NCBI GenBank assembly: GCA_964187785.1
Contig: OZ076409.1
Span: 49,168,001 to 49,232,000 of the forward strand
DNA: 64,000 nt
Reading direction: 5' to 3'
From: Amphiscolops sp. MND2022
Lineage: Eukaryota
Made by a program: the position numbers and the translations under genes. Positions 19,620 through 48,700 of the stretch are shown here, in pieces; positions within the stretch are counted from its first letter, which is position 1; the number at the start of each line of letters is the position of its first letter. The notes below the pieces were generated by a model, which had not been told where the DNA came from, made no database searches, and saw nothing but the letters and a program-made list of their open reading frames with translations.

Positions 19620-20938
19620 GGCTCACATTTGTTTCAGCACATTATAACTTGTTTTCTGAAGCGTTCTCCGAGCACGAAAGGCACCCTTACGGGGCTTCGA
19701 AACCGACTTTTTCATCAAAGACACGTCCTGAGCATATCCTAAAATATTTGCGCTTTTTGCGCCTTAGAAATAGCAAGACGTTCCCGTCTTGTTTATACTG
19801 AAGATTCTCCTTGGAACTTAAAAATTTTTCTATCTTTACCAGTAAATGAACAAAATGGCAGTGGAACGGCCCCTCTCGTGAGTATTTCTGGTTGGAGCCT
19901 AGAAGGTTCCGCTCTTATCTTTTTCCGCGCTAAGATTTCTTTTAAAGAGTCCCTGATTATATTCAATAGACTTCCACTTCTAACAACTTTCTTCGAGTTT
20001 GTTATTGGGATTTCTCAGTATTGTATTGTGAAGAGTACAAGTTGATGTTTCACCTGTGTTAGACGAAGAATGTTTTTCAATTTTTCGAGCTTTTTTCAAC
20101 CTTTCTTTTAGTCAATCTATTGTATCAGGAAATGTTCCCCACTATTACGGTCAGTAGTTTTTTGGCCAGACAACAGATTGTATGCGTAGCATCTATTTTT
20201 TGAACAGAGTTTTGTCCCAAGGATGGTTGATTTTAATTGTCTATTTTCCTTTTTTCAAAGAACTGTTCAATGGTTATCAGCAGTAGTCAGCTGAGCAGTG
20301 GTAGTTTTTTGCAAAGTACTTCCAGGTGACTGTTCTATCATTGAAATGAGTAAGAAAGACTCAATAGCTTACTCCGTGTATTATCGAAAAGGAAGTACTT
20401 TGCGTGTACGTGCGAAGAAAAGACATTGTGCGAGTGAGTGCAAGGCGGTATTTGTAAATGAGCTGTCTGTTTTGAGAAAACGTTTAGGAAACATTTATGT
20501 TAAATTTTGAAAAAGTAATAGTTAATAATACTGAATGATATTTTGTAGGCACAGTAGTATCAATTCCCCTTGCATTTGCAAATCAGTTGCTTCAGAAAAT
20601 TCAACAATTTACTTATCTACAACCGAAGTATTGTTGCCTTTACGTACTATGATATAGGGCAAATTTTTAGGGAAATTTAACTTCGACCAGGTCCTAGGAA
20701 TTTTTATTCATCTTCCGAAGTTTAAACATCAGACACAATGAATTCGTAATAATTTAAACGAAAACGTTCATTATGATGTCCCTATTCGGGTGAATTTGAA
20801 TAGCATTTATTCACACAAGGAAAATGAACTAGTGGAGTTAACATTGAAATTATACAGCATCGTGAGTTGAAATGTGGTCGGTTCAGAGTTGAGAGGCCTA
20901 ACAAACTTATGTAATGTCAATTAGAGGGATATAGTTCA

Positions 20939-22738
20939 TGTCGCAGGCTGCCGCCTGTGACGGCACGAAAATTACAACGACCTCAATCGGAAACAGCAAC
21001 AGGTACTCTCCCAATCTAATAAACTTAAACTGATAGTGAAAATTTGAACATTTTGTGTCACTTTTCCCTTCTTGCACAAATTTGTATTTGATGATGCTAC
21101 TTATTTTATTTTACTTTAATTAAGCCTTAAAGTCTGTGAAGGCTCACACTTGGAAAGATCAAAGTTGAGTGTTTTGATGTATAACAGGGCAGTTATATAC
21201 TCCAAGTAATTGAAGCTAGAATGTAAGTAAATGTACGCAGTATCGGAAACGAGTTTTCAAGTGAACGAAACTCCTATTCCGGAGACGTCACTTGAGCTCA
21301 TTATATCAACCAATCAAATCACTTCATTTGTAATACTAGTATAGTTTTCATTTAGTAATGGCCCAATAAGGCCAGTTGACTTAATATAGTTGCTTTTGTT
21401 TAGTATTTTGGTCAAATGGCCGGTTCGGGCTATTTTGTGAAAAGTAATGTAGTTATACGAATTATATTTGTGATTAACCGGTATTACTACGATTGTGCTT
21501 CTTGTGCTAAATAATCACCCTTGTGCAGTATTAGTTGCTAAATAAGCTAGATCCGAAATTAATTGACGGCTTAGGCCATTTACGTATTTTCCTCTGTTGC
21601 TAGTTTAATATCATGGATTTGGCCAATTTCGGCCGTATTATGAAAGTGCCTTTGTTCCGATCCAATTATGATGAATTGCATTGTACTGAAATGTTTCATG
21701 AGCCTATGCATGTGATATCGTGTTTTCACTCCTTAAGAATTTCAGCAATATTCGCGTGGTGGCACGTGTCATTACCGCCTTCTGATGTTGAATGCACTAA
21801 ATTCCGATGATAGCGAGTAGTATTTGTTGACACTTCGATGCTAATAGTTTACTGACGATTTGTTTGAAGTTGCGGTTTAGATTAAATACCTCTTAGAACG
21901 TTGCTTGTTGAACTTCCCGAATTATGTAAAATGTCGGGAAAACGCCATAAAAGTCATGTATCATATGATCTTATCCTTAACTAGAGAATGTAAAAAACGT
22001 GAGTGCCATCACCTCAGGAGTATATAAACAGATATCTTGCCTGAGTGGGACACTTATCAAATTTGCCTGTTCTAGTAAAGATACTTTTCCAAACGGTAAC
22101 ATTGTTAATTTTTCGGCTTAGATAATACATTATTTAACTCGGATTCTTTTCAATGCCTTGCACTAGAAAACAAAAGAAAGCTAGAAAGTCAAGAGGACTT
22201 GAAATATTCTCAGATGTCAAAAATTTCGACGTTATGTTAGGTGAGAATCACTTCAACGAGATGAGTAGAGAGGAAAGCTTAGATAGCAATTCAGCTAGAA
22301 GGCCTGAAAGTACCACTAGTAACAATCTTGGAAATGAAGAAAAGAAATCATATCTAAATCATAGAAATGTTAGTTCAGGGATCAATGCAGAGTACGGCCA
22401 AAACTCAGTTGATGCTAGCTCTCACGCTGAGATCAATAGACTGTCGAGCGAATTTAATTCCAGAATATCCAGGGAAATGGACGAGGTGATAAAAAGTGTC
22501 AGTGTTCAAATACAAAGAGCCATAAATGATGAACTTAGTAATCAGGTTTTGGCCCAGATTCGAAATGCCATTATGGCCGATTCAGGACACATGACCAGAA
22601 AAAGATGGGATGTTCCGACTGAGAGACCGGAAACAAATTCTGCAGTTCTGCGAAATGTAGGTACTAGAGATAGTTCAAAAAATGAGCACGTCCAAAATCG
22701 TCAAAACGACGATCAGACTTACCACGCTGCTTACGACA
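20939..22738 (+). repeat. 5' LTR (1800 bp)
   Basis: TG...CA with imperfect terminal inverted repeat; TATA-like GGAGTATATAAA at ~22017; aligns along its length with 42150-43947. Confidence 0.93.
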
Positions 22739-23863
22739 TGGTGACAGAAGAAAACGAATCTCCAATTGATGTTCCTGAATTTCTCACAGGACGAATACCA
22801 TCAAGAAGTCATCTCCATGGATCCCATGATGACCTCAATCAAATACTTGACACGACGATCCCAGCGCAAGAGAGGACCGTACCGGCCCCAGAACAAGATC
22901 CGATCAACAGGCTAGCTGAGGTCTTGACGAGTATGCAGAATCGCCCAACAGCCCAACAACGCACCATTCGCCCGGTCAACTTCAACACTATGACCTTTGA
23001 CGGCAAAAGTGAGAAGTTCGAGCTGTTTGAAGATCTTTTCCACCCAATGGTCAAGATGCAGCCTGAAATGTCCGAACAGATGACAATTAACCATTTTCAT
23101 TCGTTGCTGTGAAAGAATGCTCTACAAACATTCAGGAATATCAGCACGGTTAGTAGACAAACTCTTGAGGTTGTATTAGTGATCTTCAGACGCAAATACG
23201 TCAAATCTGAGTCGCAAACGACTGCCAAACACAAATGGCACCGCTTGGTCTTTGACCCCAATAGAATGAAATTACCAGACTTCCTTGAAGAATTGAACCG
23301 AGGCGCAGAAAAGGCGTTTGGAGACAACGCCCAAAAGATGATTGACAGTCTCCCAAACGCAAAACTGTCGTCGAAATTGAAACGATCAGTCAACATGGCC
23401 AGATTAGAAAATGGATCATATGACAAGATAGTTGCTCATTTAGAGAGAGAACTAGACCTTAACGGCCTTGAGGAGTCAGATGACCTACCCATGGCAACGA
23501 TGACCTCCTCATCGTCTATGCCCAAAACCCCTCTCTCCACTGGTCAAACATCACTTGCAATTATTGCAAGGACAAGGGCTATATGGTCAAGGACTGTGAC
23601 AAATTGAAAAAGAAGAAAGAAAAAGATGCCCAGCAAGGCAAAACTACTCAGAAGAAAACATATCCCAAACACGGGACTTGTGGCAAGACCAACAACCCAG
23701 AGGAACGACGTTGGCAAGGTGCCCGTGCACATCTTAAACCCAAGCGCACCAGGCCCGAGGATTCGACTGACAACGATCCCGACTCGAAAGCCTCAAAACC
23801 CCATCATAACCAACATCGTCCAACTCCCAGTCTTCATCCAAGGAAGATGATATTAAAAACTAG
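22153..23863 (+). pseudogene. gag: gag, starting inside the LTR; disrupted by stops/frameshifts
   Basis: ORFs 22153-23112, 23179-23607 and 23583-. FDGKSEKFELFEDLF capsid-like motif; degenerate zinc knuckles CNYCKDKGHMVKDC and TCGKTNNPEE; ends DDIKN* at 23863. Confidence 0.85.
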
Positions 23864-26800
23864 CTTCGCGACAACTCCAATACGATCATTTCGTCTCTGT
23901 CTGACAATACATCAAATCGGACCCTCCTACAAAAACTTTTCAAAACTATAAACAACAATTGATGGGCTATCCCTCTGTTGTCTGGCAGCAACAGATGGAA
24001 AAATCTATCATCACTACCTATAATAATACCCACCTTTACCAAAAACCAATTCCTGCTTGTGATCCTGATTATAAGACAACCTTCACTACCCGATTCAGGC
24101 CCATTCCCTTGATTGATGACTACAATCCATCGTATATTGACCCAGACTATGGCATAGACCCCTTTTGGGACTTTGAGCTCTATAACCAGGACCTATTACA
24201 ATTCCAATATTTCCTAGACGACATTGAGCACTATAAAACAACAGTCCACGAAAATCCTCCAATAACCCATAACATAAAAACAAGTGGTGATCGAAAATTG
24301 GCAGATGAATGATGGAACCAATCATCCAGTGTTCCCAAACACCTGGGGATCGAGAATTCCGAAAACAAAGATGAATCGATTCCAAAATCACTACTAGACG
24401 AGAAACAATTCCAAAACGTCCTCATTACCAAAGAGGGTGAACCAGACTCTATACCGCTGTCAACCAATATAAACCTCAAATGCAAGAAGCGTATGTTGTT
24501 TTTCCCAATGGGTTTTGGGGAATTGACCATAAATGGCCTAATAGACACTGGGGCATTATCCAGTGCCCTTCCTGAAGTGGACTTTCGGAAAATTCGACTC
24601 CTTTCGGCACAATCTGTTATCCGGGAAGGTCAGCCTCCGAACATTCAAATCATGGTCGCAAATGGGCAATTAGAAACTCCTAAAAGTACTATAGAGCTCA
24701 AATTTCAGGTTGGTGACATTGAGTTTCATGAAATCTTCATAGTAATGGAGAACTTAACGGGACCAATCATTGGACTGTTTTTCCTCCAGAGAAATCATAC
24801 AGTTTTGGATATGAGGCGAGGAAATTTGAATTTCCGTTCTTCTCGATGCTGCTCAAAACAGCTGATCACCGATACTCCAATGTCTTGGAGCCAATCCTCA
24901 ACCCGACTGAAATCACCATTCCACTAAATGACAGAGTCCTGTTCAGGACAAATTCTTTACTCTACCCTGAGAACACTGTCACTGGCATACTGCAACCAAG
25001 TGATCTGCTAAACAAAGAAGGCGACATTACCTTTTGCCCAGCTTTGGTGACTCTGAACGATGACAAAATATCGATTCCTGTGAACAACTTCACAGTTGAC
25101 CCCTACAAACTCAAGAAAGGACTCCATATTGCCAGTTTCTCTGTCGTGACGCCAGAACAAATGAAGTACGTCGAACCGGTTGGTCCGGTATCGACCTGGC
25201 ATCTCTTACAAAATGACTAAGAGCAGGCAGCCCATTATGTCAGCAGTCTCATCAAGACCAATAAAATTCCACAGAATAGAGAAAAATATTGGTTCCCAAA
25301 TCCGGAAAACCCAGGTAACACGGAGGAGCACACGCCAATCTAGAAACGAAGACAACAAAAACTACAGGCCCAACAGGACCTGGAGACTCTAGACCCGACT
25401 AAAGATGAAGAATCTAGGGAAAATTCCCAGGAAATTTTGATTGGAAGGATTCCGTTTCAACTGCGGACGAAAGAGCAAAAATTGAAGAACTATTAGTGGA
25501 ATTCCATGATAATTTCTCCAGACACGTATTTGATATAGGCATGAATGAAGAATTCAAGGTAAAACTAACGCCCAAGGATGATTCCCCAGCCTATAGCCAG
25601 AGCCTCCCAGGACCAATAAACCTAAAGAAGGACATCCTAGTCGAACTAGCTATGTTGCATAAATATGGATTCATCACTTCTCTACCATTCTCGAAGTACG
25701 CTAGTCCGATATTTGCTGAAAAGAAGCCAAATGGAAAACTGCGACTCCTGGTTGACCTGAGAAAAATCAACAACCTAAATTCGGATGATTACATAAACAA
25801 TAATCACCCTGTCGGTACCCTAGTTGATGCCGCCCAGCACATAGCAGGCAATAAGCTTTTTTGTAAATTAGACTGTTCATAAGAGTATCACTGCCTCCAG
25901 ATGGCCGACCAACGGTCAATTGAAATGTTAACCTTCAATTTTGCAAGTCGCACATTTGCCTACAGACGTTTGGCACAAGGCCTCAGTCGGGCGCTATCCC
26001 CGTTCTTCAGTTTCATGCAATACCTTGATAAAATTATCAAAGCGGACCGGTGTGCCCAGTACGTGGACGATATTGGCATCGCAGCCAACGACGCTGATCA
26101 TCTCATCGCTAACCTTAGAGCAACATTTCAATGCATTCAGGAAGCAGTCTTAAATTGACAATGCACAAATGCCATTTCGGTGCTAGAGAGATTGATTTCC
26201 TAGGACGAACAATTACCCCACAAGGTGTTAAACCGCAGAGGCACATTGTTCAAAACTTTTTTGAAAAAACCAAATTTCCGAAGTCAAAAAAGGCCTTACA
26301 AAGATGTTTGGGATTCTTGAACTACTACAAAAACTACGTCCCAAGACTTTCTGAACGCCTTGCGCCATTCTACAAGTTGCTGAAGAGTGACGAAAAGGTC
26401 CTAATATCGAAGGAATTGGTTCAACAATTTGAGGAAATCAACCGAGCATTAGACAATTGTTGCGACTTGGCCCTACAACAACCGATTCTGAACAAACAAA
26501 TCGCACTGAAGACAAATGCTAGTTTTGGGGCTGCTGGATACGCAGTGCTAATCGATGTTGACCCAAGTCAGAAATTCACTTCAATCCGCAAATCCTATGC
26601 TCGATACCGACATTATGCAAGCAACCAAGAACGAATTGTAGTCAAGGAAGAGATCCTGACCAGGCACTACTTCGACGAAACAGGGAATGTAAAATACCAT
26701 CAAATTCTACTCCCGCAGCACTTGCTTCAGGAACTGCTTCAGTCTTTTCACGGGACTGCTCTTAAGCACCCTGGCATATTAAAGATGTTACAGAAGATCA

Positions 26801-29472
26801 GGCAGAGGTATTACTACCCTAGCATGGCAAAGTATGTTTAAAAAGTGGGTAGAAGGGTGCGAACAATGCGCCAGGGACAAACACGTCCCCAATGCAACGA
26901 TCACGCCTGAACTACGCAACTTGCCGGAATGGGACCTTTTTGCAAGTCGCACATTTGCCTACAGACGTTTGGCACAAGGCCTCAGTCGGGCGCTATCCCC
27001 GTTCTTCAGTTTCATGCAATACCTTGATAAAATTATCAAAGCGGACCGGTGTGCCCAGTACGTGGACGATATTGGCATCGCAGCCAACGACGCTGATCAT
27101 CTCATCGCTAACCTTAGAGCAACATTTCAATGCATTCAGGAAGCAGTCTTAAATTGACAATGCACAAATGCCATTTCGGTGCTAGAGAGATTGATTTCCT
27201 AGGACGAACAATTACCCCACAAGGTGTTAAACCGCAGAGGCACATTGTTCAAAACTTTTTTGAAAAAACCAAATTTCCGAAGTCAAAAAAGGCCTTACAA
27301 AGATGTTTGGGATTCTTGAACTACTACAAAAACTACGTCCCAAGACTTTCTGAACGCCTTGCGCCATTCTACAAGTTGCTGAAGAGTGACGAAAAGGTCC
27401 TAATATCGAAGGAATTGGTTCAACAATTTGAGGAAATCAACCGAGCATTAGACAATTGTTGCGACTTGGCCCTACAACAACCGATTCTGAACAAACAAAT
27501 CGCACTGAAGACAAATGCTAGTTTTGGGGCTGCTGGATACGCAGTGCTAATCGATGTTGACCCAAGTCAGAAATTCACTTCAATCCGCAAATCCTATGCT
27601 CGATACCGACATTATGCAAGCAACCAAGAACGAATTGTAGTCAAGGAAGAGATCCTGACCAGGCACTACTTCGACGAAACAGGGAATGTAAAATACCATC
27701 AAATTCTACTCCCGCAGCACTTGCTTCAGGAACTGCTTCAGTCTTTTCACGGGACTGCTCTTAAGCACCCTGGCATATTAAAGATGTTACAGAAGATCAG
27801 GCAGAGGTATTACTACCCTAGCATGGCAAAGTATGTTTAAAAAGTGGGTAGAAGGGTGCGAACAATGCGCCAGGGACAAACACGTCCCCAATGCAACGAT
27901 CACGCCTGAACTACGCAACTTGCCGGAATGGGACCTTTTTGCAAGTCGCACATTTGCCTACAGACGTTTGGCACAAGGCCTCAGTCGGGCGCTATCCCCG
28001 TTCTAAAGTTGCATGGACCCGAAGACGCCATGCAGATTGACCTTTTGCCGAACCTTCCCCCTAGTTGAGGATATGAAAATGTCCCTAACTGCAATTGATG
28101 TCTTCGCTCGATATCTGTTCGCTTATCTTCTTACGGACGCTTCAGCAATCAATATAGCAAGAGTGCACATTCATATAATGACGAAACATGCGTATTTACC
28201 AACAACACTCATTACTGACAAAGGAACTGCATTCACTTCTACGATTATTGCGGAGATTACGCAAATTTTGGGAATCACACTCACATGTGCAATAACTCAA
28301 CATCCGCAAACAATCGGGAAATTGGAACAAACACATGCTTCACTGAAGACGAATCTAAAAATGGCATGTGGGGAAAATCGCCGACAATGGCATAAATACT
28401 TGCCATTAGCAGTTCTCAATCACAATACGAGCTATCACGCAAGCACCGGTTGTGAACCAACAAGAGTATTCCATGGACGAGTTCCAGACGATATCTTGGA
28501 TCACAAACTCGGAAATAATCCAAACGAGCAGATCACTCCCACAACTGAATTCGCGGAAGAAATCCAGAACCGGACAAAACTTTTGATTGACAAGACAAAG
28601 CAGAATATCATGCAATACTACATTGAATACAAGGAATATTTTGACCGCAAAGAAAAAGCGGCACCGCTCAAAGAAAACGATTACTGTTTTGTACTACAGT
28701 CAAAAGCGGGTCACCAAGGATCAAAGATCCCATTCAGATATTATCATTGGAATGGACCATTTGTAGTCCAGAAAATTTTACCTAATGAGAATTACATCAT
28801 CCGCAGACTCAATACAAATAAAACTCAGATCTTGCACCGAATTTGCCTTAAAAAGTTTGTTCCCAATCAACCACTTGAGGACAATTTCCGAGATGAACGC
28901 TTGCAACCAGACACAAAAATTTTCATTCCGCAAGACGACTTATATGAAATAACGCGGAAACAAACATCGGTGACCAGCTAGCTACACGAGGCAATGAGCC
29001 TATTCCGACTAGCTTACCGAATGGCGTACAGCCGGTTAGGACAGAAACGAATTCAAGTGACACACACGAGAATGAAGCGGATTACATAATCACGACTGAC
29101 AGTCCGAATGCCGTCAGCGACGCAGCTCAAAATCAAATTGAAAGAGTGAAAAGTGACGTCAGTAATAGAAATGAAGCTATCAAAGCTGTTAGAAATGAAA
29201 ACTCTGATTGGCCAGATTCGGCCGTTCACCACAAAGATCAAGACAAATCTTTGCCGGATCTGTCCGAAAGTCAGAACAACGATGCAAATTTTTCAGAAAG
29301 AAACTCTGCTAACAAAAACGATGCACAAAACTCTCCAAAAAAGGGGGATGATATTATCGTGCCCGAAACATTGCAAAAAGATAATAAAAACGAAAGTCTG
29401 AGCCCTAGAGGAGGGAAATACAATCTTAGGCCTAACCCCAACCCAAACTCCTTAGAAGATTTCAGATACTAA
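23860..29472 (+). pseudogene. pol: pol (protease, RT, mostly deleted RNase H, integrase), with a 999-bp internal tandem duplication
   Basis: LIDTGA protease, KKPNGKLRLLVDLRKIN, KLDCS, QYVDDI, IDFLG, LGFLNYY, H..KHPG..C..C integrase zinc finger, ITDKGTAFTS, HPQTIGKLE, W.GPF, terminal YNLRPNP. Confidence 0.92.
25939..28004 (+). repeat. 999-bp tandem duplication (2 full copies plus ~68 bp of a third)
   Basis: ORFs 26131-26841 and 27130-27840 are identical 236-aa translations; junction GAATGGGACC|TTTTTGCAAGTCGC. Confidence 0.95.
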
Positions 29473-31177: not shown

Positions 31178-34100
31178 TTGACATCTTGATGAAGATATGA
31201 TTGTTTTGAACAATGTATTTGAATTGTAAATTTTGAGCTTTGCGTTTTACGAAGGTAGATATTCAATCAAAATGGAGAACAAAACTGAAACGCAGGTTAA
31301 ACAACAAATTGAATTGAATAATTTTACAGGTACAAGCAATAATACCCTCCTAGCATCATCTGTTCATACTCGCGTACTTTAATTTCCATCGAGATATTAG
31401 TCACTTCCTGTAATTTTGCGTCAAAATTTTGATCTGCGTTCGTCAATTTTCAAGACACAGCAATTCTAATCTAGTATTAGTCATCAACCATGATCATATC
31501 ATTTCATTCCGGTGTCCTTTTGTTTCCTCCCAAGCAGAAAGTAGTTATTACTTCAGTCTGTCAAACCGGAAATTTCCCCGTTTTACTGCTTTGGTTCGTA
31601 AGAAACCGACGCGTATATGACGCTGACGTGAACAACTAATACCTGATTTTGAATTTTTACTTGAAAAAAATATGACTAATTATCTTGATTTAGACAATTT
31701 GGTGATGCTAAAAGAGTGACTGATTTACATGAGGTTAATCAATTATATATTTCAACATTTAACATTTATTTATCTGAATAAAGTTAAGAGGAACACCTTT
31801 GAGCAGCAATATAAGACGACTTGACATCGTCAAACAGTCAATGAATTTATAAAATTAGGTAATCAAAGCATACATTTAACACGCCTGCTTAGACTGCACT
31901 TTATTAACACAAACTGAAGATAAACTGTGACTCTCCAATTTAAAAAGCGTTAAAACACTGGTATTTTAAGTTAGTCTGAAAAATCCTGGCTTAAATACCA
32001 TATTCCGTTCCAATTCAATCTTAGTCGACGCAATACAGACGTAGAAAAAAGTTTTCTCAACTTCTAGTATATTAGTTGACGTAGCGTTGACGTAGATTCA
32101 AAATTTGGCTTGGTTAGTTAAATTGTGACGTAGTGTTGACGTTGATTCATATTCTAGCTTCGACTAGATTTACCGTAGTAAAGTAAGGCTTCTTTTAAAT
32201 TCAATACTGACTTAAACGCCTAATTTCATAAATTTGGGACGTAGTGTGGACGTAACTTTGGTATTAGACTTAGTCCGCAATTATAGTGGCCGTAGCGTGG
32301 ACGTAAATTTGGTATATTGGACGGATTAAACCAGCTATTTTGATGGAAAATACTCAATTACGTCTAATTTCATTATCTTGTCAACGTCATGTTGACGCGT
32401 TTTCTTGGCAGAATTTAAGCTTCATAAACTTGTCAACGTCATGTTGACGAGTTTTCTTGGCAGAAATGAGATTTTGACTAGTTTGACGTGATGCTGACGA
32501 GTATTTAGAAATAGACTTTAGCTAGTTAGCTGCCAGCGCTGTGACGTCACATTGGCGGAAAATTGGAATGTTTTCTAATAAACTATTAGTATAGGAGGAT
32601 AATCGGAATGATTTTCTGGTATGCGTAGACAAGGCTGTGACGTAGCGTAGTCGCGACGCAAATTCAATCGTTTTGGCGAAGCGGTGACGTAAATTAGTTT
32701 TAGTTTGCTTTTAATTCAATCCAGTCCGGGCGCGGACTGTGACAGGGCCACTGTCATGGGAAGAAGAGTTCCCGTGGGCATGATAAAATACAAGAGAGGA
32801 TAGTGTGATTTGTATACTTTCAAGACGACTGTTTCTGTACTAGGAAAAAAATTTCCATTCAGATTTGGAGAAAATTTTTCTCTTCACTTGTTTGTTTATC
32901 AATCTCCAGCTTTTCTTTAATCATAATTGTTGACGTAACTTCATTCTTTTTGCGGCAGCTAATTTTAATGATATGTTTCCGTTGTACTTTGCAGGAAAAT
33001 TATTAAAATGTAGTCGCTATGTATGAGCGGAAATGTGTGAAGATAAGTTCGTTATGACTTAGGCTATAAAATCATTCATAATTTAATTTAAATTTTGATG
33101 CTCTTAACTGGTCACAGTTTATTTCAGCTTAATAAAAGCGTCTAACTGTTTTCATAATGCATCCATGACAACGGACAAAACGGCACCTTTTGGCAAGCAC
33201 AATCCAGGCCGGGAGCGGACTGTGACAGGGCCACTGTCATGGGATAAAACACTCTCGTGTTGTTGAATCGTGGTCGAGGTGGACATAGCAGCTCGTGCCC
33301 ATTTGAGTCTGTTACTTTCTCTCTAGCCGTTGATAGACTGACTTATTTCACTGGCTCATTCAGATCATTCAGCCAATTTTTCCTGTGAGGATCCCACTTA
33401 CGTAGACGACCAACGGTAGAGGGTTTTTTTGAGGTTTTAATGAGGTCACTTTTACGTCACTTTATAGAGGGTTGTTTTAACCCTGTTTTTTCCCAATGAC
33501 AACAATCTTGCGTCCTTTTATACTGGGTTGTTATAACCCGGTCATTTGCGACGTCAACTTTGCGTCGTCTTTGTAAATGGGCTGTTATATTGACATCTTG
33601 ATGAAGATATGATTTTTTTGAACAATGTATTTGAATTGTAAATTTTGAGCTTTGCGTTTTACGAAGGTAGATATTCAATCAAAATGGAGAACAAAACTGA
33701 AACGCAGGTTAAACAACAAATTGAATTGTATAATTTTACAGGTACAAGCAATAATACCCTCCTAGCATCATCTGTTCATACTCGCGTACTTTAATTTCCA
33801 TCGAGATATTAGTCACTTCCTGTAATTTTGCGTCAAAATTTTGATCTGCGTTCGTCAATTTTCAAGACACGGCAATTCTAATCTAGTATTAGTCATCAAC
33901 CATGATCATATCATTTCATTCCGGTGTCCTTTTGTTTCCTCCCAAGCAGGAAGTAGTTATTACTTCAGTCTGTCAAACCGGAAATTTCCCCGTTTTACTG
34001 CTTTGGTTCGTAAGAAACCGACGCGTATATGACGCTGACGTGAACAACTAATACCTGATTTTGAATTTTTACTTGAAGAAAAATATGACTAATTATCTTG

Positions 34101-36001
34101 ATTTAGACAATTTGGTGATGCTAAAAGAGTGACATTTTACATGAGGTTATTCAATTATATATTTCAACATTTAACAATTATTTATCTGAATAAAGTTAAG
34201 AGGAACACCTTTGAGCAGCAATATAAGACGACTTGACATCGTCAAACAGTCAATGAATTTATAAAATTAGGTAATCAAAGCATACATTTAACACGCCTGC
34301 TTAGACTGCACTTTATTAACACAAACTGAAGATAAACTGTGACTCTCCAATTTAAAAAGCGTTAAAACACTGGTATTTTAAGTTAGTCTGAAAAATCCTG
34401 GCCTAAATACCATATTCCGTTCCAATTCAATCTTAGTCGACGCAATACTGACGTAGAAAAAAGTTTTCTCAACTTCTAGTATATTAGTTGACGTAGCGTT
34501 GACGTAGATTCAAAATTTGGCTTGGTTAGTTAAATTGTGACGTAGTGTTGACGTTGATTCATATTCTAGCTTCGACTAGATTTACCGTAGTAAAGTAAGG
34601 CTTCTTTTAAATTCAATACTGACTTAAACGCCTAATTTCATAAATTTGGGACGTAGTGTGGACGTAACTTTGGTATTAGACTTAGTCCGCAATTATAGTG
34701 GCCGTAGCATGGACGTAAATTTGGTATTTTGGACGGATTAAAACAGCTATTTTGATGGAAAATACTCAATTACGTCTAATTTCATTATCTTGTCATCGTC
34801 ATGTTGACGCGTTTTCTTGGCAGAATTTAAGCTTCATAAACTTGTCAACGTCATGTTGACGAGTTTTCTTGGCAGAAATGAGATTTTGACTAGTTTGACG
34901 TGATGCTGACGAGTATTTAGAAATAGACTTTAGCTAGTTAGCTGCCAGCGCTGTGACGTCACATTGGCGGAAAATTGGAATGTTTTCTAGTAAACTATTA
35001 GTATAGGCGGATAATCGGAATGATTTTCTGGTATGCGTAGACAAGGCTGTGACGTAGCGTAGTCGCGACGCAAATTCAATCGTTTTGGCGAAGCGGTGAC
35101 GTAAATTAGTTTTAGTTTGCTTTTAATTCAATCCAGTCCGGGCGCGGACTGTGACAGGGCCACTGTCATGGGAAGAAGAGTTCCCGTGGGCATGATAAAA
35201 TACAAGAGAGGATAGTGTGATTTGTATACTTTCAAGACGACTGTTTCTGTACTAGGAAAAAAATTTCCATTCAGATTTGGAGAAAATTTTTCTCTTCACT
35301 TGTTTGTTTATCAATCTCCAGCTTTTCTTTAATCATAATTGTTGACGTAACTTCATTCTTTTTGCGGCAGCTAATTTTAATGATATGTTTCCGTTGTACT
35401 TTGCAGGAAAATTATTAAAATGTAGTCGCTATTTATGAGCGGAAATGTGTGAAGATAAGTTCGTTATGACTTAGGCTATAAAATCATTCATAATTTAATT
35501 TAAATTTTGATGCTCTTAACTGGTCACAATTTATTTCAGCTTAATAAAAGCGTCTAACTGTTTTCATAATGCATCCATGACAACGGACAAAACGGCACCT
35601 TTTGGCAAGCACAATCCAGGCCGGGAGCGGACTGTGACAGGGCCACTGTCATGGGATAAAACACTCTCGTGTTGTTGAATCGTGGTCGAGGTGGACATAG
35701 CAGCTCGTGCCCATTTGAGTCTGTTACTTTCTCTCTAGCCGTTGATAGACTGACTTATTTCACTGGCTCATTCAGATCATTCAGCCAATTTTTCCTGTGA
35801 GGGTCCCACTTACGTAGACGACCAACGGTAGAGGGTTTTTTTTGAGGTTTTAATGAGGTCACTTTTACGTCACTTTATAGAGGGTTGTTTTAACCCTGTT
35901 TTTTCCCAATGACAACAATCTTGCGTCCTTTTATACTGGGTTGTTATAACCCGGTCATTTGCGACGTCAACTTTGCGTCGTCTTTGTAAATGGGCTGTTA
36001 T
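31178..36001. repeat. 2412-bp tandem duplication of LTR plus adjacent internal sequence
   Basis: 31178-33589 is nearly identical to 33590-36001 (e.g. ORFs 31429 and 33841). Confidence 0.92.
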
Positions 36002-36177
36002 AACCCGGTCATTTGCGACGTCAATCTTGCGTCGTCTTTGTAAATGGGCTGTTATAACCGGGTCATTTGCGACGTCAATCTTGCGTAGTCTTTGTATATG
36101 GGCTGTTATAACCCGGTCATTTGCGACGTCATTCTTGCGTCGTCTTTGTATATGGGCTGTTATAACCCGGTCATTTT
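35916..36177. repeat. 54-bp minisatellite, about 5 copies
   Basis: GTTATAACC(C/G)GGTCATTT recurs at 35943, 35997, 36051, 36105 and 36159. Confidence 0.92.
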
Positions 36178-39100
36178 CAGATCCTTATGGTCTTAAAAGA
36201 TCATGATCTGCAAAGTGATAATTAGACTCATTTTTGTTCTCTGAGGGAGATGTGCGTATTAGTGACGCCGACGCGCCGGTTATTCGACAACCCTTAGGTT
36301 TGTAACATTCCCCGTTCCATTAAGCTTTTGTGAATCATACGAAACTGCAGATAGGCCTTTTCTTCTTTTGTATGTTCATAGCTTAGATTTTCTGACTAGT
36401 CGATTCGGGAATGTGTGCTTCAGAGACTACGTCATTGTCATCTTTCGAACGCACGTCTCAGCCTCAGGGAGAGTCTACTTTTTTTAACTTACCGATGTAA
36501 CACCCCAGAGAGTATGCTGCCGATTTTGGAATCACGTGTTGTGGTAATTGATGTCCTCGGCGAGTGTTAGACTGCATCTGACGATGAGCTGACGGGGTGG
36601 TTGTTGTTGGTGGAGTCGTCGAATTCTAACTCGTTTATCATCAGTAGGTCAACAAGTCTTCATTTGCCGTTTGGGTTGCGTTGCTCAACTTATCAAGTTT
36701 GCGGGTTTGGAGAATGGGAGGGTAGTGATTATCGTGTATTTTTGCATAGACTCAAGAGCGACTGTGAGGTCTTCTATGACATTGATGGGTACGGCTAGAC
36801 TTTGGGTGTAGACAGAGCTGTTGTTCTTTTTGGTTATTTTCACTTTGAAACGGATGTTGATTCCAATGTCGAGTCGGTGTCTCGTAAACATGTCATTGTA
36901 CTCAATTATGATTGTTTTGAACAATGTATTTGAATTGTAAATTTTGATTTGATTGATTCAATATTCAATCAAAATTGAGAACAAAACTGAAACGCAGGTT
37001 AAACAACAAATTGAATTGAATAATTTTACAGGTACAAGCTATAATACCCTCCTAGCATCATCTGTTCATACTCGCGTACTTTAATTTCCATCGAGATATT
37101 AGTCACTTCCTGTAATTTTGCGGCAAAATTTTGATCTGCGTTAGCAGTTCGTCAATTTTCAAGACACGGCAATTCTAACCTAGTATTAGTCATCAACCAT
37201 GATCATATCATTTCATTCCGGTGTCCTTTTGTTTCCTCCCAAGCAGGAATAGTTATTACTTCAGTCTGTCAAACCGGAAATTTCCCCGTTTTACTGCTTT
37301 GGTTCGTAAGAAACCGACGCGTATATGACGCTGACGTGAACAACTAATACCTGATTTTGAATTTTTACTTGAAGAAAAATATGACTAATTATCTTGATTT
37401 AGACAATTTGGTGATGCTAAAAGAGTGACTGATTTACATGAGGTTAAACAATTATATATTTCAACATTTAACATTTATTTATCTGAATAAAGTTAAGAGG
37501 AACACCTTTGAGCAGCAATATAAGACGACTTGACATCGTCAAACAGCCAATGAATTTATAAAATTAGGTAATCAAAGCATACATTTAAAACGCCTGCTTA
37601 GAGTGCTGAAGATAAACTGTGACTCTCCAATTTAAATAGCGTTAAAACACTGTTATTTTAAGTTAGTCTGAAAAATCCTGGCCTAAATACCATATGCCGT
37701 TGCAATTCAATCTTAGTCGACGCAATGCTGACGTAGAAATGTGTTTTCTCAACTTCTAGTAAATTAGTTGACGTAGCGTTGTCGTAGATTTAAAATTTGG
37801 CTTGGTTAGTTAAATTGTGACGTAGTGTTGCCGTTGATTCATATTCTAGCTTCGATTAGATTTACCGTAGTAAAATAAGGCTTCTTTTAAATTCAATACT
37901 GACTAAAACGCCTAATTTCATAACTTTGGGCCGTAGCGTGGACGTAAATTTGGTATTTTGGACGGATAAAAACAGCTATTTTGATGGAAAATACTCAATT
38001 ACGTCTAATTTCATTAACTTGTCAACGTCATGTTGACGCGTTTTCTTGGCAGAATTTAAGCTTCATAAACTTGTCAACGTCATGTTGACGAGTTTTCTTG
38101 GCAGAAATGAGATTTTGACTAGTTTGACGTGATGCTGACGAGTATTTAGAATTAGACTTAGCTAGTTAGCTGCCAGCCCTGTGACGTCACATTGGCGGAA
38201 AATTGGAATGTTTTCTAGTAAACTATTAGTATAGGCGGATAATCGGAATGATTTTCTGGTATGCGTAGACAAGGCTGTGACGTAGCGTAGTCGCGACGCA
38301 AATTCAATCGTTTTGGCGAAGCGGTGACGTAAATTAGTTTTAGTTTGCTTTTAATTCAATCCAGTCCGGGCGCGGACTGTGACATTGACTTGAACGAAAG
38401 TTTCAGTTGGGAACATACTTACAGACATCCGTTCTTCACCCCAGTCGAAACCACAAAGAGCAAACTGGTGATCGGTGAAGGAACTGATCCGTGCCCATTT
38501 GTTACGGAGTATGGACAAGTCTCCTTGAGTCTGAAGCAAATCCGAGACGATGCTTAGTTTGGTGCGGGCTCGTGACTCAGGCGAGATGAGGGGGAGGGGG
38601 GTTGTTCGGCCTCTGACGAAGTTGTCGTAGAAGGGGAAACGCTCACCCAAATCTACTAATTCAACATTGATTGAATTTGGTAATTCATTTGCCAGCTCTA
38701 TTTTCGTCAGCAGCTTTCCGTTTCGGCCTCAAACTTGGTGTTGTATCTTCCCAGTCACCGGGTCAACACTCCTGAGGTGTTCATACCTCCATCGCTGGCA
38801 CGTCTCAGGTGTTTCTCACTGCGGTGATGCCCAAGCATTTCGAAGTGGCCCTTGGTCTTGATCGAAAAATTCCTCTTACCCACATGACACCAAACCATGT
38901 GTGGGTTGTTTACTGGGTCCGCAGGTCCAGAAATGAAGGACCTTGTCCATCCAATCTTTGCGAAGAACTCATCGCGCACTGGAACTCCACGCTGCTGTTG
39001 TCGCTTGGATCGAACTGGTTTTTTGGACTTACTCCTCCTCTTAGATGTAGAGTCCAGCACTTGTTCCCTCACTTCAGAGAGGGTTATGTCTTGGCTGCTG

Positions 39101-41449: not shown

Positions 41450-42238
41450 TAATGCAGAATTTTATCCTATCGAGGAAACTCTTCGATTTCGAAGAGCAGA
41501 GCTGAGAAGACTCGGCAGAGTCTGTCATCTACATCTCAAGCGATGAGGAAGATGAAGATACAGACTTCTATGACTCGGACTGGACATCGGACACCGAAGC
41601 ATTGATCAGCAGGATCGAGAGAGGTCAAATCTAGCCCAATTTTTTTTTGCTGGACGCGCCATGACCACAGAGAGGCTAGATGACGAGATGGAAGCAGCCC
41701 CCAGTAGCTCGCAACCGGTTACGCCAACTACCCCCAAGTTAGGATTTAAATATTTTGACGAAAAACTCTTCTACGCGCCTTCCCGGAAAATAGAAAAGGC
41801 AAAAATTGAGCTCTGCAACACAAGTCTACCAGTTTTGGAGTCACCCATGTCACCCCCCGAACATGAAAGGGGGCCTTCGCTGGACACCCCTATGCCGCAA
41901 TCGACGGTCGATATTTTGCACGCATCCTACCATTAACAGAGTGTACAGCCTTATGCCGACCTTAGCAACCAAAGGTGCCACAGTCGTATGGTATGTGGCA
42001 AATCTGTCGACGAGACAATCAAGAAAAAATAGACTGGTATATTGAGAGGTCTACACCCTGGAGCGAACCTGCCTACATAACAGCCCTGAGACGGGAAGCG
42101 TATACAAACGGTCTTAATGCAGGTAGTTTGCTTTTTCTGGCACCCGCTGTGTCGCAGGCTGCCGCCTGTGACGGCACGAAGAATATAACGACCTTGATTG
42201 GACAGGAGACAGCGACAGGTACTCTCCCTATTTCTTAA
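41450..42238 (+). pseudogene. Sense accessory ORF ('ORF3') of the Gypsy element, ending inside the 3' LTR
   Basis: Fragments VIYISSDEEDEDTDFYDSDW (41520-41585), 41661-41936 and 41975-42238 join through stops/frameshifts. The last ~29 codons come from the LTR. Confidence 0.55.
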
Positions 42239-43947
42239 ACTTAAACTGATAGTGAAAACTTGAACCTTTTGTGTCAATTTTCCATTTTTGCACAATTTTG
42301 TTTTTGATGATGCTACTTATTTTCTTTTACTTTATAAGAATTAGTCTGTTAAGGCTCACAATTGGAAAGATCCAAGTTGAATGTTTTGATGTATAACAGT
42401 GCGATTATATACTCAAAGTAATTGAAGCTAAAATGTAAGTAAATGTACGCTGTATCGGAAACGAGTTCAATTGAACGAAACTCCTATTCCGGAGACGTCA
42501 CTTGAGCTCATTATATAAACCAATCAAATCACTTCATTTGTAATACTAGTATAGCTTTCAATTAGTAATGGCCGAACAAGGCCAGTTGACTTAATATAGG
42601 TGCTTTTGTTTAGTACTTTGATCAAATGGCCGGTTCGGGCTATTTTGTGAAAAGTAATGTTGTTATACCAATTATTTTTGTAATTAACCGGTATTACTAT
42701 GATTTTGCTTCTTGTCCTTAATAATCACCCTTGTGCAGTATTAGTTGCTGAATAAGCTAGATCCGAAATTATTTGACAGCTTAGGCCATTTACCTATTTT
42801 CCTCTGCTGCTAGTTTAATATCATGGATTTGGCCAATTTCGGCCGTATTATGAAAGTGCCTTTGTTCCTATCCAATTATGATGAATTGCATTGTACTGAA
42901 ATGTTTCATGAGCCTATGCATGTGATATCGTGTTTTCTCTCCTTAGTAAACTCAGCAATATTCGCGTGGTGCACGTGTCATTACCGCCTTCTGATGTTGA
43001 CTGCACTAAATTCCGATGATAGCGAGTAGTATTTGTTGACACTTCGATGCTAATAATTTTTTGATGATTTGTTTGAAGTTGCTTTTTAGATTAAATACCT
43101 CTTAGAACGTTGCTTGTTGAACTTCCCGAATTATGTAAACTGTCGGGAAAACGCCATAAAAGTCATGTATCATATGATCTTATCCTTAACTAGAGAATGT
43201 AAAAAACGTGAGTGTCATCCCCTCAGGAGTATATATACAGATATCTTGCCTGAGTGGGACACTTATCAAGTTTGCCTGTTCTAGTAAAGATACTTTTCCA
43301 AACGGTAACTTTGTTAATTTTTCGGCTTAGATAATACATTATTTAACTCGGATTCTTCTCAATGCCTTGTACTAGAAAACAAAAGAAAGCTAGAAAATCA
43401 AGAGGACATGAAATCCTCTCAGATATCGAAAATTTCGACGTTATGTTAGGTGAGAATCACTTCAACGAGAAGAGTAGAGAGGAAATCTTAGATAGCAATT
43501 CAGCTAGAAGGCCTGAAAGTACCACTAGTAACAATCTTGGAAATGAAGAAGAGAAATCATATCTAAATCATAGAAATGTTAGTTGAGGGATCAATGCCGA
43601 GTACGGCCAAAACTTAGTTGATGCTAGCTCTCACGCTGAGATCAATAGACTGTCGAGCGAATTTAATTCCAGAATATTCAGGGAAATGGACGAGGTGATG
43701 AACAGTGTCAGTGTTCAAATACAAAGAGCCATAAATGATGAAATTAGTAATCAGGTTTTGGCCCAGATTCGAAATGCCATTATGGCCGGTTCAGGACACA
43801 TGACCAGAAGAGGATGGGACGTTCCGACTGAGAGACCGGAAACAAATTCTGAAGTTCTGCGAAATGTAGGTACTAGAGATAATTCAAGAAGTGAGCACGT
43901 CCAAAACCGTCAAAATGACGATCAGACTTACCACACTGCTTACGACA
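42150..43947 (+). repeat. 3' LTR (1798 bp), containing a copy of the gag N-terminus (43362-)
   Basis: Matches the 5' LTR; followed by TSD GTTCA. Confidence 0.93.
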
Positions 43948-44739: not shown

Positions 44740-44972
44740 CCCGGGTTTCCCGACCAGGCCGATCATAATCTGACCATATTATGGCACCATAAAAATCATA
44801 CAAATTTCCTTACTTAGATCTTGCTATGATCGGCCTGGAATCATCATGAGTGCAGGCTGCACTCATGATGATTCCAGGCCGATCATAGCAAGATCTAAGT
44901 AAGGAAATTTGTATGATTTTTATGGTGCCATAATATGGTCAGATTATGATCGGCCTGGTCGGGAAACCCGGG
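44740..44972. mobile_element. Perfect fold-back MITE with TTA TSD (PIF/Harbinger-like)
   Basis: 116-bp arms are exact reverse complements around a single G at 44856; TTA at 44737-44739 and 44973-44975. Confidence 0.85.
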
Positions 44973-45792: not shown

Positions 45793-48700
45793 AGTTACGA
45801 TTTATGTTCGTATCGTCGTTTAAGGTAGAATTGATCCTCACTGATCTTGTCGGAGTATAAAATTCTCTAGGTGCATTTCCCAAAGAATTATCCTCTTGTT
45901 CTCTAATGGATTCGGTCGTTTTGGATTTTAATAGTTTCAGAAGTTCCTTTTGGGATTCTCTTAGGAGACCCTTTATTTCTGAAGTGATTTCTTCTTTCAA
46001 GGAGGTTCTGAGCCCTTCCAGTACACTATTCTCTATCCTAGGGGATTTAGCTGAAGAAGGCCCCGCAACAGACTCGTCTTGGTCGCTAGACTCTACATTT
46101 TCTACCAAAATTGGGGAACTTACGGTTTCATTAACGTTCTCGGAACTCTCTTGTTGGTTATTTCTTCTCTTCTGGCTTCTAGTTGACATTTTGGAGACAA
46201 GTTTTCATTTTCCAACTTGCATTGATTCTTGATTATTAAGTTTTCACAAAGAAGATTGACATGAAGGTTTGAAATTCTGAGTTTACTGAGACAACTGCTT
46301 ACTCAAAAGGCAAAGGACTGAGTTCCTCAACAATTTGAATGCATCGTATTTATACACTCCTAGCATCATTTGATCACGAATAAATCCCTAATTTCCTACG
46401 AAAAATTAGTCATTTCCTGTATTTTCGATGAAAAAAATCTTTATGATCCCAAATTTGCGTCGACATTTCGTCAAATATTAGGACACGGCAATTCTAATCT
46501 AGTATTAGTACTTGACCATGATCATATCATTTCATTCCGGCGTCCTTTTGTTTCCTCCAAAGCAGGAAATAAGTATTACTTCAGTCTGTCAAACCGGAAA
46601 TGTTTCCCTGTTTTACTGCTTTGGTTCCTAGGAAAATTGACGCGATGACGCTGACGTGAACAACTAATGCCTGATCTTGAAATTTTGCTTGCAGAAAATT
46701 ATGACTAATTCCGTTTGCTTGAAATTTCCAATGATGCTGAGAGGGAATAAGGTTATAAAAAAGCAACAAACTCTGAGTTAACCTATTTGAACTAGTTGTA
46801 CATTTTAATCAATAAAAACACAAACCAGCGGGGGCATTGACGCCTACTAAATGTTAAAAATGGGTCGCAGCTCCAAACAACCAATATTAACATCAACGTT
46901 TAGTACGACAGTAAAGAGGTTTACAAAATTTTAACGATTCAATAGAAGCTTGCACTTAACTGATGAAAAGTTCTATTAAGATCATCAAGTTTACAAATCT
47001 GCACACTATTGGTGAGCGACGTGACAACGTCATGTCTAAAATGGTTCAACAAATTCAATACACCTTGAGTTATTAAACGTTTTGAATATCACATGATATA
47101 ATTGAATAACAATTGAAAAACTACCCCGACCTTGTGATTAGGTAAAACTTATTGTTCCTTTAGTGATTATACATTGTACAGAAATATCAAAGCACACTAG
47201 AACAACTCTGCTCGATTTAGGCCACGACAATGTGACGAAAATTTCAGTTTACTGTATCATAAACCAACTGCAAGGTTTAAAAAGACAATACTACTAATAC
47301 AAAAACATTCTCGTGTTACAAAAAACAATTGTTGGTTCTGTACTGAATATCGACTGTGACTACCGCATATAAAGTATGTAGAAATTCCACTTATTTCGGA
47401 CCCTAATAGATTCCTAATTCTGTATTCAAAGTAGCAGTAATTGGTTCGACGAAGGACAGACGTGTACTACAAGTTTCTTACTTTTATTCTAGCTAAGTTA
47501 TGCATGATTTAATCATTTTCTTTGCATCATTTTCGTTAAATTAGCGTTCATTTTACTATTTTGGATGGATTAAAACAGCCATTTTGATGGATTTTGGACG
47601 TAACGTGGACGTGAATTTGGTGCTAGCCTCAGTCCGCCATTATAGTGGATGTAGCGTGGACGTAAATTTGGAATACTTTTAATTAGCTGAATAGCTAGTG
47701 ACGTGTTGCTGACGTCACAAATATGATAATATTTGCATGTGCCGCTGTAATTGTTTACTTAGCGATGAATCTTCGTCATAATTCAATTCAATTGCTGTTC
47801 GAAAAGCAATCAGGCTGCTGCCTTCCTTAGAAAAGGCGTAATGCTTTATTCTCTATTTTTCAATGTACTTTTCATTTTAGATATGCGTATGTTCTTTTCT
47901 GTGAAGTGACTTTTTCAATTTCGGTTCTATTTAGATTTGTTTTGATCTCTTTCAATTTGTTCAATTTGGTAGTTGTCGCAGGCTGCCACCTGTGATCTTA
48001 GTTTATTTTATGTTCCTTTGCCTGTCGTCTTGGACAGCCAGTCCTGTTGAATTTAGACCAATCATATTGCAGTAATAATCTGAGTGCTCTGAAATATTGC
48101 TTTCAATTAATAGACACGATGGCTGTTCACCGCATGTCAACTAATAAACCAGTACGTTTGCGGCAGTCGGACATTGAGTCCCAATTTAGATTTCAAGTGC
48201 TGTTAACTTTCATTTAAATGCCATTCATGGCTGTCCATCTGAATAAATCTTTCACTTGTGGCTAGTGGACACCTAGTCCGGTTAAATATTAACCAATCAC
48301 AGCGCAGTATTTGTTTGAGTATTCTAATTCATTACTGTAGTTGTTGGACACGATGGCCATATGCCTTTTGTTCTAGTATAATGATGCTTCATTTATGGCT
48401 GTGGGACATCCAGTCCCAAATTATATTGAAGTACAAGATTGCTGAAATGAATGATTGGATATGGCCCTTTATTGTCTGATGGAAGTATTTGTTCATAACC
48501 ATAGACCTATGAAATCGTTGCTGGAAATTGCGTGCCTTATATAAAATTGGTCAAAGTGTCCTTTCCCCCTTTTGGTATTGCCTTTAAGGTGAAATGACCT
48601 ATATTGAGTGTAAAATTGTTCACTGTTATGGCATATACCAATATATATATTGCGGCCCTTATGGCCCAGTGTTATATGATGATACATGAAAAGTGTATGT

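What the first reader, a model, noticed from the sequence alone, without database searches (positions are those of the whole stretch)
22153..22750. gag begins ~590 bp inside the LTR and reads through the att site and PBS, echoed in four LTR types
The ATG at 22153 lies 586 bp before the LTR end and ~130 bp after the TATA-like box. The frame continues through ...TAC GAC A|TG GTG ACA GAA (YDMVTE). LTR-internal ORFs also occur in the 3' LTR (43362), the minus solo LTR (MSTRSQKRR, 46189-45791, open to the LTR end), the plus solo LTR (49111 onward) and the nested LTR (MSTRVRK, 31183, short). Every solo LTR therefore deposits a promoter plus a coding start that can read into flanking host DNA, a possible source of chimeric genes. 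Ty1/Ty3-type gag overlaps with the LTR are usually much shorter.
Basis: partly seen in the sequence, partly recalled or inferred. Interest (0 to 1): 0.7.

Follow-up and report, generated by a model that had tools for sequence, protein, structure and literature searches.

The report
Gag gene starting inside long LTRs
In a large family of jumping genes, the repeat at each end of the element also codes for the first 130-200 amino acids of its coat protein, so every leftover repeat carries a ready-made gene start, but there is no sign yet that the host has turned any of them into useful new genes.

Summary
The core observation holds. A decayed Ty3/Gypsy element (1.8-kb LTRs, 5-bp TSD) has its gag ATG 586 bp inside the LTR, and the frame runs through CA|TGG. 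It is clade-wide. Of 120 listed long relatives, 115 have the junction peptide after 189-198 residues and 112 share the same start. In 97 of 120 listed short relatives the frame runs off the LTR end into flank. Solo LTR C matches a second gag family (about 132 codons in the LTR), D a third. The LTR-coded part has two conserved blocks: a basic N-terminus and a 53-residue helix that models as a homotrimer (0.76, best control 0.01). The start site was not measured; replication logic puts it upstream of the ATG.

'Four types' is overstated: D lost its start and B is cut just after its ATG. Chimeric genes are unsupported: tails have random length (median 16 aa), no LTR here yields a host fusion, and one single-copy fusion to a C-type-lectin-like frame was found, unverified.

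Verdict: a real, much longer version of the Ty1 arrangement.

The parts
20934..20938 (+). left target-site duplication GTTCA (right copy 43948-43952)
20939..22738 (+). 5' LTR of element A, 1800 bp, TG...CA
22020..22028 (+). TATA-like box GTATATAAA, 133 nt before the gag ATG; like motifs lie 128 nt (D) and 166 nt (C) before the equivalent position
   Evidence: function inferred
22153..22738 (+). LTR-coded first 195 codons of gag (inferred R/U5)
22153..22251 (+). conserved basic N-terminal block (codons 1-33)
   Evidence: pairwise identity 0.87 among 115 intact gags
22420..22578 (+). conserved amphipathic helix (codons 90-142), modelled as a parallel homotrimer in a relative
22734..22750 (+). 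att site and PBS, read in frame as D|MVTE; the Met codon is made by the LTR's last A and the PBS's TG
22739..23860 (+). rest of gag (capsid, zinc knuckles), broken by a stop at 23110-23112 and later frameshifts; end approximate
24241..29470 (+). decayed pol: protease, RT, integrase in Gypsy order, with a 999-bp tandem duplication (25939-28015); ends approximate
31183..38384 (-). nested element B (C-related LTRs, an RT fragment seen by eye, a 2412-bp tandem duplication), flanked by TTGAC; its LTR is cut just after the ATG at 31184
42150..43947 (+). 3' LTR of A; its ORF from 43362 has a stop at codon 75
45793..49810 (-). solo LTR C (about 2.4 kb without the nested D), TSD TGTTC; ORF 46189-45793, 132 codons, open to the LTR end and stopped there
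47974..49613 (+). solo LTR D, 1640 bp, nested in C, TSD GTAGT; broken ORF homologous to A's (49096-49600)

Best explanation
A Ty3/Gypsy clade in which the 5' end of gag lies in the transcribed part (R/U5) of a long LTR.

Shown: the ORF starts at a conserved Met 586 bp (family A) or about 397 bp (family C) before the LTR end, crosses the att site and PBS in frame, and continues into capsid and zinc knuckles. The LTR-coded part has a conserved basic N-terminus and a conserved long helix, joined by variable linkers.

Inferred: transcription starts about 25-30 nt after the TATA-like box (near 22050), giving a leader of about 100 nt and about 690 nt of R+U5. Reverse transcription from the PBS makes an unusually long minus strong-stop DNA, which copies these gag codons into both LTRs. 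The helix is an oligomerisation domain of Gag and the basic block a nucleic-acid-binding or nuclear-import signal. The Met at 22738 is a by-product of CA|TGG, not the main start.

Solo and 3' LTRs therefore carry a capsid-less Gag N-terminus with a random tail as a passive by-product, which decays neutrally after insertion.
For: -: 112 of 120 listed long relatives begin MPTTRKQK; 115 of 120 have [YH]D|MVT after 189-198 residues.
- 98 of 120 listed short relatives leave the family sequence at that D (97 after removing one gag variant). All continue with N, T, S, R, I, M or K, the residues an A-first codon can give (43.5% of random residues). This fixes the LTR end inside the frame.
- family C has 64 of 75 relatives continuing as gag through RN|MVTG.
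- further lineages with 113-212 residues before the same junction peptide; the residue before it is D, H, N or Y in 25 of 25 matches among 150 representatives.
- among 115 intact gags, identity is 0.87 (N-block) and 0.82 (helix) against 0.46-0.48 (linkers); shared variants are depleted in the blocks relative to private ones (58:44 against 118:250, p=9e-6) and are conservative there (mean BLOSUM +0.6 against -0.65).
- the A and D LTR ORFs align as protein (E 4e-10; 0 of 1000 codon shuffles reach the score), while blastn finds only the first 22 bp.
- trimer score 0.76, best control 0.01, runs agree in at least 96% of contacts, pLDDT at least 82. The mark was reached by 21 of 30 solved homodimers and 0 of 23 single chains in microbes, by 7 of 16 animal pairs; the calibration held two copies, not three.
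- Established replication scheme: U3 is copied from the RNA's 3' end, so an ATG upstream of the start site could not be held in frame with gag by selection.
Against: - No RNA, start-site or ribosome data.
- No DNA of the relatives, so no dN/dS between subfamilies.
- The A-D codon-position pattern (0.47/0.59/0.32) is not evidence by itself: shuffled controls give 0.43/0.52/0.31.
- A and C LTR-coded parts share only the first 9 residues in a profile comparison (probability 1.4%), so common origin of that segment is not shown.
- The window's C copy has three ATGs between its TATA-like box and the gag ATG.
- Protein searches see only open frames, which biases towards intact ORFs.
- For the lineages beyond A, C, D and P0425's, the LTR boundary is inferred from the peptide alone.
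- Helices with a hydrophobic stripe may pass a trimer test generically.
Confidence: 0.86

Rival explanations
1. Gag starts at the junction ATG (22738); the upstream frame is a separate LTR-borne accessory ORF (like MMTV sag in U3, recalled) or is kept for RNA-level reasons.
For: The junction Met is nearly invariant (115 of 120) and has a purine at -3 and G at +4 when preceded by a D or N codon (sequence). Some gene calls start there (P0422, P0446, P0475).
Against: The Met is forced by CA plus TGG, so its conservation says nothing about use. No stop separates the two parts in lineages whose upstream lengths differ from 113 to 212 residues. Conservation follows a helix with 3.6-3.9 periodicity and survives loss of DNA similarity.
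Confidence: 0.06
2. One reading: solo LTRs regularly seed functional chimeric host genes with a Gag N-terminus.
For: Frames do run into flank. P0099 continues 261 aa into a C-type-lectin-like domain (Pfam E 0.009, below the cut-off; langerin E 8e-5). LTR promoter plus AUG founding a gene is known in mice (PMC5538554, passages). One splice-donor-like site lies at 22241 in A.
Against: Tails: median 16, mean 22.6 aa against 14 and 21.6 expected from window DNA. Only 1 of 120 listed long A relatives is a non-gag fusion. Of 11 such fusions among 75 C relatives, three exceed 200 aa: one runs into a viral-type fusion glycoprotein ORF, one into another family's LTR ORF, one into an unnamed ORF. P0099, P0385 and P0354 are single-member clusters, as is P0373. 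Gene calls may read TGA through (P0001 does), and P0099's DNA was not seen. Donor-like sites occur at 0.27 per kb by chance and C and D have none. 5' against 3' LTR pN/pS is 0.74, not different from 1 (p=0.47).
Confidence: 0.1
3. The capsid-less product of solo and 3' LTRs is made and acts as a trans-dominant brake: it joins full Gag through the helix and spoils particle assembly as solo LTRs accumulate.
For: 705 clusters of 107-342 aa match the LTR-coded part and most listed ones are LTR-only products. The helix models as a homotrimer. Truncated Gag restricts Ty1 (p22; PMC4974528, passages).
Against: No expression data. The many intact copies may only be young. All four non-5' LTRs here give broken or short products. 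p22 keeps capsid sequence, this product has none. Mixed trimers were not modelled.
Confidence: 0.15

Closest known systems
Ty1 of Saccharomyces cerevisiae (Ty1/copia)
   Same: PBS lies inside the GAG ORF, so gag starts in the LTR (PMC4974528, passages).
   Different: Ty1's PBS is at RNA nt 94-104, which caps the overlap below about 94 nt (about 40 nt from recall). Here it is about 397-586 nt, holds a folded domain, and the element has Gypsy domain order.
Ty3 and Ty3/Gypsy-derived capsids (PNMA2, Arc, dArc)
   Same: Integrase closest to Ty3 (E 6e-15); capsid model ranks PNMA2, Arc and dArc first (best E 4e-3). Arc's N-terminal coiled coil ahead of capsid is recalled.
   Different: Ty3's PBS is next to the 5' UTR, outside GAG. 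No purine tract precedes the 3' LTR here.
Mouse MT/ERVL LTR exaptation (D6Ertd527e)
   Same: An LTR supplies promoter and AUG to flanking sequence (PMC5538554, passages).
   Different: Those LTRs give a short exon with a splice donor and proven expression. Here the LTR gives 130-200 codons of Gag by direct read-through, with no expression shown.
Ty1 p22/p18 copy-number control factor
   Same: A truncated Gag made beside full Gag (PMC4974528, passages).
   Different: p22 lacks the N-terminus and comes from an internal RNA; the product here would be the N-terminus only, from solo LTRs, and is hypothetical.
Microsporidian gypsy elements with gag starting in the LTR
   Same: Gag start and a conserved helix inside the LTR, frame through the primer site.
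   Different: 20-60 codons and no tRNA-type PBS there; 113-212 codons and a TGG-type PBS here.

Membership tests
Ty3/Gypsy LTR retrotransposon | Two direct LTRs with TG...CA ends and a short target-site duplication | tested here: met
   93.7% identity, TSD GTTCA
Ty3/Gypsy LTR retrotransposon | pol order protease - RT - (RNase H) - integrase | tested here: met
   gag-asp_proteas at 24493, Integrase_H2C2 and rve downstream of the RT region. RNase H gave no Pfam hit in this decayed copy.
Ty3/Gypsy LTR retrotransposon | Integrase related to Ty3 | tested here: met
   best solved relative Ty3-G Gag-Pol, E 6.2e-15
Ty3/Gypsy LTR retrotransposon | Gag with Ty3/Arc-type capsid and CCHC knuckle | tested here: inconclusive
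   on a relative (pLDDT 77): PNMA2, Arc, dArc fill ranks 1-8 but none reaches E 0.001; zf-CCHC below cut-off, MLV NC E 0.001
Ty3/Gypsy LTR retrotransposon | RT phylogeny and named clade | not testable with these tools
   no named reference set on hand; some searches gave only short zinc-knuckle matches or nothing
Ty3/Gypsy LTR retrotransposon | tRNA primer site directly after the 5' LTR | tested here: inconclusive
   TGGTGACAG follows the LTR; no host tRNA to match (0 in window); likeness to a tRNA-Leu site is recalled
Canonical PPT-primed LTR element | Polypurine tract before the 3' LTR | tested here: not met
   Searches (A; B): no purine run abuts the LTR
Ty1-type gag-in-LTR arrangement | gag ATG in the LTR and PBS inside the gag frame | tested here: met
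Ty1/copia superfamily | integrase before RT | tested here: not met
LTR-founded chimeric gene (MT/ERVL type) | Active LTR promoter and expressed chimeric mRNA or protein | not testable with these tools
   no reads could be laid
LTR-founded chimeric gene (MT/ERVL type) | Splice donor in the LTR | tested here: inconclusive
   one site in A, none in C or D; 0.27 per kb in the window
LTR-founded chimeric gene (MT/ERVL type) | Long frame fused to a host coding sequence and kept | tested here: inconclusive
   none in the window; one single-member candidate, P0099
p22-type Gag restriction factor | Truncated Gag is made, binds Gag and lowers transposition | not testable with these tools
   only self-association of the helix was modelled

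The most novel reading that the evidence does not exclude
The LTR itself is a small gene. Every solo or 3' LTR encodes a capsid-less, trimer-forming Gag N-terminus behind the element's own promoter. The by-products of LTR recombination would then make a dominant-negative protein whose dose rises with element load, a built-in copy-number brake that mirrors Ty1 p22, and would now and then graft a basic N-terminus and a trimerisation helix onto host domains such as a C-type lectin (P0099).
Probability: 0.15. Interest if true: 0.82.

Novelty: new variant of a known kind. Interest (0 to 1): 0.52.

Why it matters
LTRs are treated as non-coding control regions; here a quarter to a third of Gag, with a conserved folded domain, sits in the LTR of a whole clade. 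It implies a minus strong-stop DNA of about 690 nt, an att site and primer site that must also be protein code, and several hundred protein clusters that are stray 200-residue ORFs which annotation will call genes. It makes two questions testable in one genome: whether solo LTRs restrain their own family through a protein, and how often an LTR-borne domain is taken up by host genes.

Tried and rejected
- No whole genome is held for this window, so copies could be studied only as proteins.
- No RNA holder listed; no reads were laid, and this is no evidence either way.
- Searches for DNA of relatives: 1 viral and 10 metagenome loci matching only the zinc knuckle, none in prokaryote genomes; not used.
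- ESM Atlas: no usable hit for the LTR-coded part; best 0.76 for the tail of P0354, a lead at most.
- Full-length Gag fold was poor (mean pLDDT 41); only helix 90-142 (block means 65-76) was taken from it.
- Codon-position identity between A and D rejected as evidence after the shuffle control.
- Homology of the A and C LTR-coded parts not shown.
- B as an independent fourth type rejected.
- Pfam hits below cut-off on the LTR-coded part (Zw10_N, YpjP, DNTTIP1_dimer) treated as generic helix matches.
- Host identity: I guessed an acoel from memory. The look-up of a host ORF failed and no relative carries a name, so the host is unidentified; the acoel papers (PMC9911081, PMC6451197, passages) are background only.
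- Phrase searches for a long gag stretch inside an LTR found no such paper (listings only). Passages of PMC5408684, PMC7175516 and PMC3601003 do not describe it. No supplements or repeat libraries were seen, and these may already hold such elements.

Full report
Anatomy. The window holds a decayed LTR element (A) with LTRs at 20939-22738 and 42150-43947, 93.7% identical, TG...CA ends and the TSD GTTCA. Protease, RT and integrase follow in Gypsy order; the integrase is closest to Ty3 among solved structures (E 6e-15), and a capsid model of a relative ranks PNMA2, Arc and dArc first, though none reaches E 0.001. This copy is dead: gag has a stop at 23110 and pol is frameshifted and partly duplicated. 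The host is not identified; the window has animal-like genes (MLF1IP, TPR).

The observation. ATG 22153 lies 586 bp before the LTR end and 133 nt after a GTATATAAA box, with no ATG in between. The frame crosses the junction as GAC A|TG GTG ACA. No such frame arose in 20,000 resampled sequences. Solo LTR C (45793-49810, minus, TSD TGTTC) has a 132-codon frame open to its end in the same phase. Solo LTR D (47974-49613, TSD GTAGT) is nested in C, has lost its start and is frameshifted, but ends in the same phase. B is related to C, has its ATG where C has it, and is cut there; TTGAC flanks it on both sides. I infer a deletion between the matching bases in the ATG region and the target duplication. 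So three LTR types carry the ORF and the fourth only its first codons.

Relatives. A search with the 195 LTR-coded residues found 195 proteins of 343-2000 aa among 574 candidates (120 listed) and 705 of 107-342 aa among 745 (120 listed). Apart from the window's own protein, all listed ones are from ENA contigs and unnamed; they probably come from one organism (inference), so the taxonomic range is unknown. Of the 120 long ones, 112 start MPTTRKQK and 115 have [YH]D|MVT after 189-198 residues; they go on into capsid and zinc knuckles. Of the 120 short ones, 14 stop before the junction, 8 continue as gag and 98 leave the family sequence at the D (one of these is a gag variant, leaving 97). Every one continues with a residue that an A-first codon can give, which 43.5% of random residues do. 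This marks the LTR end inside the frame without needing DNA.

Other families. The C ORF found 75 proteins among 715 candidates. The script classed 54 as gag, 14 as flank and 7 as unplaced; by inspection, 3 of the 14 and all 7 are gag, giving 64 gag and 11 flank. Its capsid region is 37% identical to A's. A profile search of 50%-identity representatives (2399 hits, 150 listed) added P0404, the gag closest to D (E 3e-31), and lineages P0407, P0412, P0425, P0441, P0455 and P0502, each with 113-212 residues before an MVTG-like peptide. For P0425's family a run-off copy exists; for the others the LTR border is inferred from the peptide.

Selection. In 115 intact gags (of 205 proteins then held) identity is 0.87 in residues 1-33 and 0.82 in 90-142, against 0.46 and 0.48 in the linkers and 0.96 in capsid. 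Shared variants are depleted in the blocks relative to private ones (p=9e-6) and are conservative there. A and D align as protein (E 4e-10; 0 of 1000 codon shuffles) with no DNA match beyond 22 bp. The low third-position identity is also seen in shuffled controls and was set aside. A and C share only nine residues by profile. Between the two LTRs of this copy pN/pS is 0.74 on 28 changes, not different from neutral. dN/dS between subfamilies could not be computed.

The helix. Residues 90-142 form one long helix in an otherwise low-confidence model. Seven segments from six lineages show a hydrophobic period of 3.6-3.9. Three copies of residues 84-146 of P0312 scored 0.76 against a best control of 0.01, with at least 96% contact agreement and pLDDT of at least 82. 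The mark was reached by 21 of 30 solved pairs and 0 of 23 single chains in microbes and by 7 of 16 animal pairs; the job had three copies, unlike the calibration, and other copy numbers were not tried. The model supports self-association; it does not show it.

Mechanism. Shown: geometry, frame, conservation. Inferred: the RNA starts shortly after the TATA-like box, so the ORF lies in R/U5. By the established scheme U3 is copied from the 3' end of the RNA, where an ATG cannot be translated into gag, so a start codon kept in frame across lineages must be downstream of the start site. If the box is instead a poly(A) signal, which is the better conserved motif in animal Gypsy LTRs (PMC3601003, passages), the ATG still lies in U5. 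The junction Met follows from CA plus TGG; a second, shorter isoform is possible and untested.

Chimeric genes. Tails have a median of 16 and a mean of 22.6 residues; window DNA predicts 14 and 21.6, or 25 and 37.5 if TGA is read through. One of 120 long A relatives (P0099) runs 261 residues into a C-type-lectin-like domain. Three C fusions exceed 200 residues: into a fusion glycoprotein ORF, another family's LTR ORF and an unnamed ORF. All four are single-member clusters, their DNA was not seen, and chance insertion into coding sequence explains them. In this window the 3' LTR stops at codon 75, C stops at its end, D is broken and B gives 13 codons.

Comparison. Ty1 has its PBS in GAG at RNA nt 94-104 and Ty3 does not (PMC4974528, passages), so the arrangement is known but at most a sixth as long. 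LTR promoter plus AUG founding a gene is known in mice (PMC5538554, passages). Unchecked notes of this scan describe 20-60 gag codons in microsporidian gypsy LTRs. Eight phrase searches showed no paper on 100-200 gag codons in an LTR, but they match words only, miss subscription journals, and no supplements or repeat libraries were seen.

Verdict. A real, clade-wide and unusually long LTR-gag overlap with a conserved, probably oligomerising domain: a new variant of a known kind, interest 0.52. The chimeric-gene reading has little support. The boldest reading left open is a solo-LTR-encoded brake on transposition (probability 0.15).

Noticed in passing
window 40069-38390 and 31177-29780, minus strand: Element A carries a long broken antisense frame between pol and the 3' LTR, split by the nested element B; it has a zinc-finger-like stretch by eye and no Pfam hit.
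   Followed up: partly
window 42120-42185 and 32710-32775: No polypurine tract precedes the LTRs of A or B; both LTR types begin with a GC-rich hairpin. How the plus strand is primed is unexplained.
   Followed up: partly
window 22153-22197; family A and P0404: The basic N-terminus holds ARKS at residues 10-13 in at least 222 of 288 family-A proteins and in P0404, but not in family C. It recalls the histone H3 K9 motif (from memory); a plain nuclear signal is the ordinary reading.
   Followed up: no
P0407, P0419, P0422, P0434, P0441, P0446, P0534: Several lineages repeat the junction peptide in tandem, which suggests duplicated att/PBS segments inside gag.
   Followed up: no
P0097, between protease and RT: Weak dUTPase-like match (Pfam E 0.036); the same region is present in the window near 24825-25418.
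   Followed up: no
P0385: The genome behind these proteins holds a Monjiviricetes-type fusion glycoprotein ORF (PF24664, E 7e-17), probably the env-like gene of another retroelement, hit by a C-type LTR.
   Followed up: partly
window 53508-54197 (+): Single-ORF MLF1IP-family gene (E 3.5e-53), 3.9 kb downstream of solo LTR D on the same strand; no link shown.
   Followed up: no
window 12857-15205 (+): Multi-exon TPR gene with short introns, TOM70-like by eye.
   Followed up: no
window 31178-36002, 25939-28015, 58206-64000: Three near-perfect tandem duplications (2412, 999 and about 2915 bp, 99% or more identical): recent events or assembly artefacts.
   Followed up: no
window 44736-44976 and 1-3504: A 120-bp near-perfect palindrome, and fragments of a BEL/Pao element at the window's start (Peptidase_A17).
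   Followed up: no
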